A program made the position numbers and the translations under genes. A DNA stretch of 46,740 bases from Candidatus Hermodarchaeota archaeon. Its GTDB lineage: Archaea > Asgardarchaeota > Lokiarchaeia > Sigyniarchaeales > SOKP01. Under the pieces are notes generated by a model that saw only the letters and a list, made by a program, of their open reading frames with translations, ran no database searches and was not told the origin of the DNA. Each line of letters opens with the position of its first letter. The stretch's first letter is position 1. Positions 25,671 through 26,930 of this stretch are shown here, piece by piece. The stretch covers positions 1-46,740 of the forward strand of contig JBHLLG010000017.1 in NCBI GenBank assembly GCA_048885925.1, read 5' to 3'.

Positions 25671-26930
25671 ATTTCTTTTGATGAATTAAGCAAAAAGTTA
25701 GCTAAATTTATGAAAGATACTGAAGAGATTGAGCTCACAGACGTAGATTTGTTTGCAGAATATCTTGAATTTCAAATGCTTCCAGGTATTATACAAACTG
25801 CTGCCCAAGCTGTATTACCTGGTGTTCCCGGAAAAGCAGAATGGACTCCTGCCAAATTCTCGCTTGATATAGAATTTCCAGGTAAAATTGAGACAATTGA
25901 ATTTGTACGTTCAAAAGGGAAAAGAGTTGTAATTGGAGGAGAGGTTGTTCCTCCATTTTATAATTTTCTTGGCTTGAGCAAACGAAATCCTAATCCACCT
26001 CTCGTAACTTATGATGTATTTGATATGGGTGCTAAAATGATGCTTCCAAAACCAATAAAAGAGGAATATGGTAGCGTTTTAGCAAATCCCGCTCAATGGG
26101 CAAAATTTGCTGTTGATAAATTTGGCGCAGAATGTATTACTTTCCACTCCTTAGAAATAGATCCTGCTATGGGAGATGCTCCAATCTCTCAATCCAGGAA
26201 ATATTTAGAAGATATACTTCAAGCTGTTGATGTACCTGTCATAATTGGATGCTCTGGAAATAAAAAGAAAGATGTAGAATTATTTGAAGTAACTGCTGCT
26301 GCAACTGAAAGCGAAGTGTTAATGCTCTCTGCCGCTGATAAAGCTACATGGGAAGAAGTATGCCAATCGAATTTATCGAATGACCTTCAAATCCCATTAG
26401 CTGTCAAATATGACCATAATTGCCTACTCTGGACAAGCCTAGATATGAACAACCAGATTAAGATGAACAAGGATGCTCTCGAACTTGGACTCCCCCGTAA
26501 TAGGATTGTAATGGATCCTACCTGCGCAACAGCTTAATTTGTGTAAATCTCTTACGTGGCTGCGATTTTGGGGTACGGTATGGAGTACTCATTTAGTATC
26601 TATCAACGCATGCGCATTGCTGGACTGCTAGGCGAAACTGATCTAGCATATCCGATCAGTGGAGGAACCACGAATGCCTGGGGTGCTAGAGAAGCTTGGA
26701 TGAGTGAGAAGCAAGCTCCTGAGTGGGGGCTACGACAATACCGAGGACCTATCTGGGAAGTCCTCAATGCATTAAGCTTATCGCTTGTGGGTTTGGATTT
26801 AGCAATGATGTTTCATCCAGTTGCCGCAAAGCATGTTAAGGATATTACAAAACAATTTTTTGCTGAAATCCCGAAAATTCTAGACGAAAAGGGTTATTAT
26901 GATTGGGTTTCAGCAAATTTGAGACGTTAA
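25671..26930 (+). CDS. cdhD: Acetyl-CoA decarbonylase/synthase delta subunit (corrinoid Fe-S protein small subunit), split by two putative BHB introns; exons 25671..26360, 26391..26530, 26567..26930 (397 aa)
   Basis: IGGE..PFY.F, P..WAK, LQAVDVP.IIG.SG...KD, RIVMDPT..LGYGMEYS, NAWGAREAW and RGPIWE motifs span ORFs 25710..26537 and 26556..26930, which share a frame. The start is ATT 25671 (inferred) or ATG 25710. Confidence 0.9.
26361..26390 (+). other. Putative 30-nt bulge-helix-bulge-type mRNA intron 1 in cdhD
   Basis: Central helix GAAG(26355-58)/CTTC(26385-88), bulges TAT and AAA, exon stem AGCTA-c-ATGGGA/TCCCAT-TAGCT, internal hairpin. Removal gives TWEEV|IPLAVKY. Confidence 0.72.
26531..26566 (+). 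other. Putative 36-nt bulge-helix-bulge mRNA intron 2 in cdhD (contains in-frame TAA)
   Basis: Central helix CGCA(26525-28)/TGCG(26561-64), bulges ACA and ATT, intron stems GCT/GGC and GTGTAA/TTACGT. Removal gives MDPTCAT|LGYGMEYS. Confidence 0.82.

What the first reader, a model, noticed from the sequence alone, without database searches (positions are those of the whole stretch)
26531..26566. Intron 2 (36 nt) carries an in-frame TAA, so splicing would be obligatory
Sequence: CCTG CGCA AC^A GCT TAATTT GTGTAA ATCTC TTACGT GGC TGCG AT^T TTGGGGTAC. The helix CGCA/TGCG has bulges ACA and ATT and continues into the intron stems GCT/GGC and GTGTAA/TTACGT. The exon-exon stem is weak (TACCT/GGGTA). 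Excision regenerates the ACT codon and the conserved MDPT-x-x-x-LGYG motif. Unspliced mRNA stops at 26535..26537 and loses the C-terminal ~120 aa, which nevertheless remain an intact open frame, suggesting continued selection.
Basis: seen in the sequence. Interest (0 to 1): 0.85.

Follow-up and report, generated by a model that had tools for sequence, protein, structure and literature searches.

The report
Spliced mini-intron inside an archaeal enzyme gene
A 36-base tRNA-type (bulge-helix-bulge) intron interrupts the cdhD gene of a Lokiarchaeial (Asgard) archaeon and very probably has to be cut out of the mRNA, and it is one of several such introns in this genome's protein-coding genes, something previously confirmed only for one gene (cbf5) in a different archaeal group.

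Summary
Window 25710..26930(+) is a single-copy cdhD gene (CODH/ACS delta subunit). It is interrupted at 26531..26566 by 36 nt that carry two in-frame TAA codons.

- **Junction:** removing exactly these 36 nt gives MDPTCAT|LGYG, the sequence found in all 48 insert-free orthologous loci.
- **Homologous inserts:** five related species have an insert at the same codon. Three are 36 nt and two are 32 nt, so the 32-nt ones shift the frame unless excised.
- **Structure:** all six alleles keep CGCA-AC^A...TGCG-AT/G^. All 92 cells of the proposed helices pair, and two pairs show compensatory changes.
- **Selection:** the downstream exon is under strong purifying selection (dN/dS about 0.03-0.06).
- **Machinery:** EndA and RtcB are encoded in the genome.

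A motif-free comparison with 1.2 Mb of a congener found seven such inserts in six genes of this genome: cdhD (two), a CODH catalytic subunit, a Ras-like GTPase, ribosomal protein uL11, UppS and a JAB protein. All seven have a bulge-helix-bulge (BHB) in the exact splicing register. uL11 is interrupted in about 10-11 of the 23 genomes of the genus that have it.

No RNA evidence could be obtained. In kind this is a BHB pre-mRNA intron, as in crenarchaeal cbf5. The new points are the gene, the lineage and the scale.

The parts
25710..26360 (+). cdhD exon 1 (ATG 25710, MKDTEE...ATWEEV)
   Evidence: ORF and translation. PF03599 CdhD and TIGR00381 cdhD match. The same N-terminus is seen in orthologs.
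26361..26390 (+). Intron 1: 30 nt, in frame, no stop. Read through, it would encode CQSNLSNDLQ.
   Evidence: Absent from 54 of the 57 genome-contig loci readable at this site. Present as 30 nt in L021, 30 nt with an in-frame TAA in L026, and 29 nt (frameshift plus TGA) in L067. The BHB GAAG-TA^T...CTTC-AA^A is in the exact register.
26391..26530 (+). cdhD exon 2 (IPLAVKYDH...MDPTCA + AC of the split Thr codon)
   Evidence: The Pfam profile runs to position 180 at this end.
26531..26566 (+). Intron 2, the finding: 36 nt, with in-frame TAA at 26535-37 and 26544-46
   Evidence: Excision restores MDPTCAT|LGYG and a 384-aa product of the same length as insert-free orthologs.
26525..26528 (+). 5' strand (CGCA, exonic) of the central 4-bp BHB helix. 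It pairs with 26561..26564 (TGCG, intronic).
   Evidence: Invariant in 6 of 6 intron-bearing alleles. The exon codons TGC-GCA-AC occur in 6 of 6 intron-bearing but only 2 of 48 insert-free alleles.
26529..26531 (+). 5' splice-site bulge AC^A (cut after 26530)
   Evidence: The position follows from the junction with insert-free orthologs.
26532..26560 (+). Intron-internal hairpin: GCU/GGC (26532-34 with 26558-60) and GUGUAA/UUACGU (26541-46 with 26552-57)
   Evidence: All cells paired in six alleles. Pairs 30-54 and 39-51 of alignment A1 show changes on both sides.
26561..26564 (+). 3' strand (TGCG) of the central BHB helix
26565..26567 (+). 3' splice-site AT^T (cut after 26566). It lies in a larger internal loop rather than a clean 3-nt bulge, so the motif is a relaxed HBh' form.
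   Evidence: The outer helix has only 1 adjacent pair. The more distal helix ATCC/GGRT is conserved.
26567..26930 (+). cdhD exon 3 (T of the Thr codon, then LGYGMEYS...ANLRR, stop 26928-30)
   Evidence: PF03599 resumes at profile position 179 and TIGR00381 at 280. dN/dS is about 0.03-0.06.

Best explanation
The 36 nt at 26531..26566 are an archaeal bulge-helix-bulge (BHB) intron inside the cdhD pre-mRNA of a Lokiarchaeial (Promethearchaeota) archaeon.

Proposed mechanism:
1. In the transcript, exon bases CGCA pair with intron bases UGCG. This places the two splice sites in unpaired trinucleotides on opposite strands, four base pairs apart, and an intron hairpin buttresses the 5' site.
2. The tRNA-splicing endonuclease EndA cuts after 26530 and after 26566.
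3. RtcB joins the exons. This rebuilds the ACU Thr codon and the MDPTCATLGYG motif, and the intron is released.

Without splicing, translation stops at TAA 26535 and yields a 275-aa fragment that lacks the last 120 residues. Splicing is therefore required for a full CdhD.

What is shown: the anatomy, the exact junction, conservation and covariation, selection on the downstream exon, and the presence of both enzyme genes. What is inferred: that this RNA is actually cut and ligated, and by these enzymes. The cleavage and ligation chemistry is recalled from textbook knowledge and comes from no call.
For: 1. **Gene identity and continuity.** The two ORFs hit one family with contiguous profile coordinates: PF03599 7-180 | 179-227, TIGR00381 57-277 | 280-376 and NF003375 84-322 | 324-429. 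There is one cdhD match in the genome.
2. **Exact junction.** The site is readable in 53 of 61 genome-contig loci. Of these, 48 read MDPTCAT|LGYG with no insert, and 5 (L021, L032, L033, L047, L048) have an insert at the same nucleotide. In the genome search, 4 of the 19 loci readable at the site had it: G000, G005, G017, G020.
3. **Length variation.** Lengths of 36 nt (4 alleles) and 32 nt (2 alleles) rule out any reading that keeps the insert in frame.
4. **Structure.** On alignment A1 of the 6 alleles, 17 pairs give 92 cells that are 100% paired, against 22-45% when partners are slid by 1-3 columns. Two pairs change on both sides.
5. **Exon-side constraint.** TGCGCAAC occurs in 6 of 6 intron-bearing and 2 of 48 insert-free alleles, although synonymous sites are otherwise near saturation.
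6. **Downstream exon.** dN/dS is 0.026-0.065 where dS could be estimated. This includes pairs in which both members carry the intron: L047-L048 0.031, G000-L021 0.033.
7. **Product length.** After excision in silico, all 8 intron-bearing cdhD genes give 383-384 aa, like the insert-free ones.
8. **Machinery.** EndA is a 198-aa ORF matching PF02778, PF01974 and TIGR00324. RtcB matches at 4.8e-171.
9. **Same pattern elsewhere in the genome.** A motif-free census against 1.2 of the 2.27 Mb of congener G021 found 7 short inserts in 6 genes. All 7 have a BHB in the register that reproduces the ortholog junction: six with a 4-bp helix and one (UppS) with 3 of 4 pairs. The null frequency is 0.026 per register. 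The probability of at least 6 of 7 is 2e-9, or 8e-6 if 4 registers are allowed per insert. Pfam profiles are contiguous across the inserts: Prismane 3-457|458-512, L11_N 1-25|27-58, Ras 1-34|38-157.
10. **Essential gene.** The single-copy gene uL11 is interrupted in about 10-11 of the 23 genomes of the genus that have it, at two or more sites.
Against: - No RNA evidence was obtained. The single metatranscriptome found shared only 0.05 of the sampled words, its contigs were 85-95% relatives, and none bridged the site.
- Thermodynamics alone do not favour the BHB. It is not the MFE fold (-13.1 against -14.3 kcal/mol) and the region folds no better than shuffles (z +1.27 and +0.94). A competing register, CAGCU/GGCUG, appears in the MFE.
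- The 3' splice site is not in a clean 3-nt bulge and the outer exon-exon helix is weak (1 adjacent pair). Cleavage would therefore need a broad-specificity endonuclease.
- Only one EndA gene was found and no beta subunit, so the enzyme type is unresolved here.
- Covariation rests on 6 related sequences, and 5 of 500 shuffles reach the observed score.
- A blind BHB plus ORF-fusion scan of the genome showed no enrichment at the true register: 398 hits against about 370 at shifted registers.
Confidence: 0.88

Rival explanations
1. Split gene. The N-terminal 275 aa and a C-terminal piece started at GTG 26556 (or a later start codon) are made as two polypeptides that assemble into CdhD. Nothing is spliced.
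For: An in-frame GTG at 26556 opens a 124-aa ORF. Gene callers in public data report 275-aa products for related alleles (P0001 and P0002).
Against: - The GTG is GTA in L021, L032 and L033. The next in-frame start there would be the Met after LGYG, which loses the conserved motif.
- The break falls inside an invariant motif.
- This reading does not explain why the exon side TGCGCAAC and the paired intron bases are conserved while synonymous sites are saturated.
- It does not explain why six other inserts in this genome also carry a BHB in the exact register.
- No purine-rich ribosome-binding sequence precedes 26556 (read directly).
Confidence: 0.03
2. Pseudogene or recent neutral insertion. 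cdhD is broken in these lineages and the open downstream frame is a leftover.
For: There are two in-frame stops. The distribution is patchy: on the gene tree the 6 intron-bearing rows need 5 changes.
Against: - The downstream exon has dN/dS of 0.03-0.06 with saturated synonymous sites, including between intron-bearing species.
- Six species keep the insert with intact flanks.
- There is a single cdhD match in the genome.
- The same kind of insert sits in the ribosomal protein gene uL11 in about half of the genus, with no second copy found.
Confidence: 0.02
3. Recoding at the ribosome. Either the TAA codons are read through or reassigned, or the ribosome bypasses the stretch (as in phage T4 gene 60, recalled from memory) from GCU 26532 to GCU 26559.
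For: The 36-nt form is a multiple of 3. A GCN codon followed by TAA lies at the start and a GCU near the end of the insert. The hairpin between them resembles a bypass element.
Against: - The 32-nt alleles shift the frame.
- TAA ends 1125 of 1556 long ORFs.
- Among 488 long orthologous ORFs (207,908 aligned residue pairs), interior in-frame stops occur in only 3 other genes.
- Read-through would put 10 unconserved residues, and bypass 3 extra residues, into an invariant motif.
- In the CODH catalytic-subunit gene the same trick would land out of frame (read).
- The matching GC dinucleotides follow simply from the helix.
Confidence: 0.03
4. A real intron, but removed by something other than EndA and RtcB, for example an unknown nuclease or ligase, or self-cleavage.
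For: The 3' site departs from the strict BHB. The endonuclease type was not resolved. No RNA or enzyme data exist.
Against: - The cut positions implied by the orthologs are exactly those of the BHB rule, after the second base of each unpaired triplet and 4 bp apart, in 7 of 7 inserts.
- 36 nt is too small for known ribozyme introns, and Rfam finds nothing there.
- Asgard endonucleases are reported to be of the broad-specificity (alpha-beta)2 type with the L1 loop (PMC5829648, passages read).
Confidence: 0.04

Closest known systems
BHB introns in crenarchaeal cbf5 pre-mRNA (Aeropyrum, Sulfolobus, Desulfurococcales)
   Same: [quoted passage not shown]
- A BHB-type motif and patchy gain and loss among relatives.
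- Some are in frame and some are not.
- The insertion falls inside a conserved motif, and genome annotation overlooks it.

Source: PMC2738675, abstract from the listing and passages read.
   Different: - A different gene (cdhD), a different phylum (Asgard/Lokiarchaeia) and a mesophilic, 29% GC genome.
- Two introns in one gene, and at least seven in six genes of one genome.
- That paper states that splicing had been confirmed for no archaeal gene other than cbf5.
- cbf5 splicing was shown experimentally. This one was not.
[quoted passage not shown]
   Same: - The same predicted motif geometry and the same predicted enzymes.
- Asgard tRNA genes are reported to be heavily interrupted and to have gained introns repeatedly (bioRxiv 10.64898/2026.10.13.758758, abstract read; PMC11291895, passages read).
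- In this genome ARAGORN finds 12 tRNA genes without its intron option and 31 with it, 19 of them with an intron.
   Different: The host RNA is an mRNA, so splicing competes with translation and decides the reading frame. A search of the preprint for 'mRNA', 'cbf5', 'protein-coding' and 'coding gene' found no statement on mRNA introns. A search of PMC11291895 for 'BHB', 'intron' and 'bulge' showed passages on tRNA introns only.
Unconventional cytoplasmic mRNA splicing of HAC1/XBP1 (Ire1 endonuclease plus tRNA ligase/RtcB) in eukaryotes
   Same: It works alike. A protein endonuclease cuts two stem-loop sites in an mRNA and a tRNA-type ligase joins the exons, which changes the reading frame or the C-terminus. 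This is recalled from memory; RtcB's role in XBP-1 splicing is mentioned in the abstract of PMC8718801 (listing).
   Different: The endonuclease (Ire1) and the recognition motif are different, and that system is a regulated stress switch. No homology is claimed and no regulation is shown here.

Membership tests
Archaeal BHB intron (EndA/RtcB-spliced) | A 4-bp central helix with the two cleavage sites in unpaired trinucleotides on opposite strands | tested here: met
   CGCA/TGCG with ACA and ATT. Identical in 6 of 6 alleles. The 5' bulge is canonical. The 3' trinucleotide lies in a larger loop.
Archaeal BHB intron (EndA/RtcB-spliced) | Flanking helices on both sides (strict hBHBh') | tested here: inconclusive
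   The inner helix h' is present (3 bp plus a 6-bp stem). The outer helix has only 1 adjacent pair, and a distal ATCC/GGRT helix lies beyond an internal loop. This fits the relaxed HBh' class, not the strict motif.
Archaeal BHB intron (EndA/RtcB-spliced) | Cutting after the 2nd base of each bulge yields the functional mature RNA | tested here: met
   It gives MDPTCAT|LGYG as in 48 insert-free loci and a 384-aa product. The cut-position rule itself is recalled from memory, not taken from a call.
Archaeal BHB intron (EndA/RtcB-spliced) | The helices are maintained in evolution (conservation or covariation) | tested here: met
   100% of 92 cells paired against 22-45% in slid controls. Two pairs show compensatory changes. 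Only 6 related sequences were available.
Archaeal BHB intron (EndA/RtcB-spliced) | The host encodes the splicing endonuclease and the RtcB ligase | tested here: met
   EndA at C22:7621-8217. RtcB at C12:26362-27669. An EndA beta subunit was not found with PF01974 or PF02778.
Archaeal BHB intron (EndA/RtcB-spliced) | Spliced RNA and excised (circular) intron observed | not testable with these tools
   One RNA run was found. Its contigs came from relatives and none crossed the site.
cbf5-type pre-mRNA intron | Located in the cbf5 (pseudouridine synthase) gene of Crenarchaeota | tested here: not met
   The gene is cdhD and the organism is Promethearchaeota by the record titles of near relatives. 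It works like a cbf5 intron but is not that intron.
Stop-codon read-through or reassigned TAA | The insert stays in frame in all carriers, and TAA is tolerated inside genes | tested here: not met
   The 32-nt alleles shift the frame. TAA is the main terminator. Interior stops are seen in only 3 of 488 other long orthologs.
Group I/II intron, intein or repeated mobile element | A ribozyme or protein-splicing domain, or repeated copies in the genome | tested here: not met
   It is only 36 nt. Rfam finds nothing but a tRNA in the window. No second copy of any of the 7 introns exists in the genome. Stops exclude an intein.

The most novel reading that the evidence does not exclude
This Lokiarchaeial genus carries a turning-over population of enzymatically spliced BHB introns in many protein-coding genes. 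These include essential ones (ribosomal protein uL11) and core energy metabolism (two CODH/ACS genes, with two introns in cdhD alone). The introns are gained and lost between species, as tRNA introns are. If so, routine mRNA splicing by a protein machinery, and the need to keep ribosomes off unspliced messages, exists in the closest prokaryotic relatives of eukaryotes. A bolder and less likely extension is that splicing of the CODH/ACS messages is regulated and gates the Wood-Ljungdahl pathway.
Probability: 0.7. Interest if true: 0.9.

Novelty: new member of a known kind. Interest (0 to 1): 0.8.

Why it matters
1. **Scope of archaeal mRNA splicing.** BHB splicing of mRNA has been confirmed only for cbf5 in Crenarchaeota (PMC2738675). 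Here it appears in a different gene, in Asgard archaea, and as one of at least seven cases in a single genome. That would turn a curiosity into a genome-wide phenomenon in the lineage nearest to eukaryotes. The questions of how introns invade coding genes, and how cells cope with splicing while translation is coupled to transcription, are central to ideas about eukaryotic origins.
2. **Annotation.** Gene callers report truncated proteins for these genes: 275-aa CdhD clusters P0001 (23 member sequences) and P0002, and uL11 in two pieces. This distorts metabolic reconstructions and marker-gene completeness estimates for Asgard MAGs.
3. **Testability.** The junctions are exactly predicted, so one metatranscriptome, RT-PCR or metaproteome from a sample rich in this genus would settle the matter.

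Eight literature searches found no report of BHB introns in Asgard protein-coding genes. The library lacks most subscription journals, and no supplementary files were consulted, so prior mention cannot be excluded.

Tried and rejected
- **RNA evidence.** The look-up of sequencing runs returned one metatranscriptome that held 0.05 of the sampled words. Read laying showed 5 contigs at 85-95% likeness. None covered 26442..26661 and no joint was reported. One contig carries an insert-free junction at site 1, but it comes from a relative, so it says nothing about splicing. This is no evidence either way.
- **A spliced product in public protein collections.** The best hits to exon 1 are 89% identical. 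None is this organism's protein.
- **Blind genome scan.** The scan asked for BHB (4-bp helix, inner helix of at least 4 bp, outer of at least 2 bp; 87,160 candidates) plus ORF fusion. It gave 398 hits at the true register against 330-408 at shifted registers. Neighbouring genes swamp the signal, so I dropped it in favour of the motif-free ortholog census.
- **Folding energy as evidence.** It is not significant for intron 2. It is significant only for the CODH catalytic-subunit intron (z -4.65).
- **Careful ML tree.** It did not finish in 288 s, and that run's expression for site 1 also failed. The quick tree (SH-aLRT only, gene tree, 6 distant rows left out) is what I cite.
- **EndA beta subunit.** Not found with PF01974 or PF02778. 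I did not pursue it further.
- **Intron mobility.** No sequence similarity was found among the seven introns or to other places in the genome.

The remaining 1.07 Mb of G021 was not fetched, so the census covers about half of that genome. It also misses in-frame, stop-free inserts that look like ordinary indels.
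Full report
**What is there**

The window is a whole 46,740-bp contig (C17) of a 3.9-Mb, 181-contig genome with 29% GC. Record titles of its closest relatives name them Promethearchaeota/Promethearchaeia, that is Lokiarchaeia, Asgard archaea.

Positions 25710..26930(+) encode the delta subunit of CO dehydrogenase/acetyl-CoA synthase (CdhD). Table 11 splits the gene into a 275-aa ORF ending at TAA 26535-37 and a 124-aa ORF starting at GTG 26556, both in the same frame. A second in-frame TAA lies at 26544-46.

The two ORFs match one family with contiguous coordinates:
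- PF03599: 7-180, then 179-227
- TIGR00381: 57-277, then 280-376
- NF003375: 84-322, then 324-429

The nearest solved relatives are ACDS delta (9fzy_E) and the CoFeSP small subunit (4djd_D). Only one cdhD match exists in the genome.

**The observation**

The exon-exon helix is weak.

As a fold it is unremarkable. The constrained BHB fold is -13.1 kcal/mol against an MFE of -14.3. The z-score is +1.27 for 86 nt and +0.94 for 58 nt, and a competing register appears in the MFE. The case therefore rests on comparison, not on energy.

**Comparison with orthologs**

In the genome search, 18 of 23 other genomes of the genus had cdhD. The site was readable in 19 loci. Four of them (G000, G005, G017, G020) carry a 36-nt insert and 15 carry none.

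In the 61 loci from genome contigs, which are largely the same species set with record titles, the site is readable in 53:
- 48 read MDPTCAT|LGYG without an insert
- 3 have 36 nt (L021, L032, L033)
- 2 have 32 nt (L047, L048)

The 32-nt form shifts the frame, so only removal of the insert can give the conserved C-terminus.

All six alleles keep CGCA-AC^A-GC...GC-UGCG-A(U/G)^, whereas the loop and inner stem differ. On alignment A1 the 17 proposed pairs are formed in all 92 cells, against 22-45% with slid partners. Two pairs change on both sides.

The exon half of the helix is also constrained. TGC-GCA-AC occurs in 6 of 6 intron-bearing alleles and in 2 of 48 insert-free ones, although synonymous sites in this gene are near saturation (pS 0.45-0.90).

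**Selection on the downstream exon**

The 360-nt downstream exon has pN 0.02-0.13 and dN/dS 0.026-0.065 wherever dS could be estimated. This includes comparisons between two intron carriers. After removal of the predicted introns, all 8 interrupted cdhD genes give 383-384 aa, like the uninterrupted ones.

The alternative restart at GTG 26556 is not conserved. It is GTA in the three other 36-nt alleles.

**A second intron in the same gene**

At 26361..26390 a 30-nt in-frame insert (CQSNLSNDLQ if read through) is absent from 54 of the 57 genome-contig loci readable at this site. It recurs as:
- 30 nt in L021
- 30 nt with an in-frame TAA in L026
- 29 nt, with a frameshift and a TGA, in L067

Its boundaries are GAAG-UA^U...CUUC-AA^A, again a 4-bp helix with cuts after the second unpaired base. 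The 'peptides' encoded by in-frame versions vary freely, as expected of non-coding sequence.

**The same thing elsewhere in the genome**

I compared stop-to-stop ORFs of 1.2 Mb (of 2.27 Mb) of the congener G021 with this genome by tblastn, with no use of any RNA motif. Short inserts with a stop or a frameshift, plus the in-frame cdhD intron 1, appeared in six genes:

| Gene | Location | Length |
|---|---|---|
| cdhD, intron 1 | C17 26361-26390 | 30 nt |
| cdhD, intron 2 | C17 26531-26566 | 36 nt |
| Prismane/CODH catalytic subunit | C4 38336-38367 | 32 nt |
| Ras-family GTPase | C12 62467-62497 | 31 nt |
| Ribosomal protein uL11 | C20 5250-5277 | 28 nt |
| UppS | C37 24652-24681 | 30 nt |
| JAB/MPN protein | C15 18539-18569 | 31 nt |

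In all seven, a BHB lies in the one register that reproduces the ortholog's junction. Six have a 4-bp helix and UppS has 3 of 4 pairs. The CODH catalytic-subunit intron is a textbook hBHBh' (inner helix 8 bp, outer 6 bp, fold z -4.65).

A 4-bp helix in a given register occurs at 0.026 in this genome. The chance of at least 6 of 7 is 2e-9, or 8e-6 allowing four registers each. Pfam coordinates are contiguous across the inserts.

The reverse search found no convincing such insert in the 1.2 Mb of G021, so intron load differs between congeners.

uL11 is interrupted in about 10-11 of the 23 genomes of the genus that have it:
- G000, G003, G006, G007, G019 and G020 near residue 35/36. G005 is likely the same, but its two pieces lie on different contigs.
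- G002 and G004 near residue 27-32.
- G009 and G015 by a 36-nt BHB intron at a second site, TGGG-AG^A...CCC(G/A)-A(A/G)^U.

No intact second copy was found. A ribosomal protein gene cannot be a pseudogene in half a genus.

**Rivals**

- **Read-through or reassignment of TAA.** Excluded by the 32-nt and 29-nt alleles. TAA also ends 1125 of 1556 long ORFs. Interior stops are seen in only 3 of 488 other long orthologs over 207,908 aligned residue pairs.
- **Ribosomal bypass from GCU to GCU.** Formally possible in cdhD, but it would add three residues to an invariant motif and it fails in the CODH catalytic-subunit gene.
- **Split gene and pseudogene.** Contradicted as described above.
- **Assembly error.** Excluded by six independent assemblies.
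- **Known RNA families.** Rfam finds only a tRNA in the window.
- **Repeat family.** The introns are not one.

**Mechanism**

EndA (198 aa; PF02778, PF01974, TIGR00324) and RtcB are encoded. Because the 3' site lacks a tight outer helix, the motif is of the relaxed HBh' kind. Asgard endonucleases are reported to be (alpha-beta)2 enzymes with the L1 loop that goes with broad specificity (PMC5829648, passages read). I found no beta subunit here, so this step is inferred.

tRNA genes of this genome also look heavily interrupted: ARAGORN finds 12 tRNAs without its intron option and 31 with it, 19 of those with an intron. This is in line with reports for other Asgard lineages.

**Distribution**

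On a quick cdhD gene tree (44 rows; 6 distant rows left out; SH-aLRT support only), the six carriers of intron 2 need 5 changes, at least 3 of them forced by well-supported branches. They are no more clustered than shuffled labels (134 of 500 shuffles as low). This points to repeated loss and/or gain, or to recombination. A species tree is needed to tell these apart.

**Known or new**

The kind is known: BHB introns of 16-44 bp in crenarchaeal cbf5. The 2009 paper states that splicing had been confirmed for no other archaeal gene, although others were predicted (PMC2738675, passages read).

Eight full-text searches found nothing on BHB introns in Asgard protein-coding genes. The two Asgard intron papers I opened gave no statement on mRNA introns in the term searches I ran.

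I therefore file intron 2 as a new member of a known kind. The lineage and the multi-gene scale are what make it interesting.

**What is missing**

There is no RNA, enzyme or protein evidence. The census covers about half of one relative's genome. Supplementary files of papers were not consulted.

Noticed in passing
window 26361..26390: A second BHB intron in the same cdhD gene: 30 nt, in frame, no stop, GAAG-TA^T...CTTC-AA^A. Homologous inserts of 30 nt (one with a TAA) and 29 nt (frameshift) occur in three other species. It is absent from 54 of the 57 genome-contig loci readable at this site.
   Followed up: yes
G000 C4:38336-38367 (+) = L144:2336-2367: A 32-nt canonical hBHBh' intron in the Prismane/CO-dehydrogenase catalytic subunit gene (APEY|MEQKA). 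Inner helix 8 bp, outer 6 bp, fold z -4.65. The Pfam profile reads 3-457|458-512. Three of the seven introns found lie in CODH/ACS genes.
   Followed up: yes
G000 C20:5250-5277 (-) = L146; also L160 and L161: The ribosomal protein uL11 gene is interrupted by a 28-nt BHB intron. In the genus it is interrupted in about 10-11 of the 23 genomes that have the gene, at two or more sites. G009 and G015 carry a 36-nt BHB intron with two TAA at a second site. The site in G002 and G004 was not examined at the DNA level.
   Followed up: partly
G000 C12:62467-62497 (-), C15:18539-18569 (-), C37:24652-24681 (+): BHB introns of 31, 31 and 30 nt in a Ras-family GTPase, a JAB/MPN protein and UppS. The UppS one sits inside the DG|NRRW motif and has only 3 of 4 pairs in its central helix.
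   Followed up: partly
whole genome G000: ARAGORN finds only 12 tRNA genes without its intron option and 31 with it (19 with introns, some possibly false). This suggests that many tRNA genes are interrupted in ways the program misses.
   Followed up: no
public protein clusters P0001, P0002, P0114, P0120: Gene callers report truncated CdhD proteins of 275, 275, 266 and 263 aa that end at or right after MDPT(C)A. P0001 stands for 23 member sequences. These are probably further intron-bearing alleles in metagenomes. Their DNA was not examined.
   Followed up: no
L041, L036, L040, L056 and others: Record titles of near-identical cdhD loci in this clade carry inconsistent taxon labels: Hodarchaeota, Odinarchaeota, Thorarchaeota, and one 'Nanopelagicaceae bacterium'. 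This suggests mislabelled or mis-binned MAGs.
   Followed up: no
G000 C83, C5 and C73 (matches to G021 ORFs g021a|+|131526, g021b|-|257113 and g021c|-|9632): Three long orthologs show interior in-frame stops opposite residues, with no insert. They are possible pseudogenes or paralogs.
   Followed up: no
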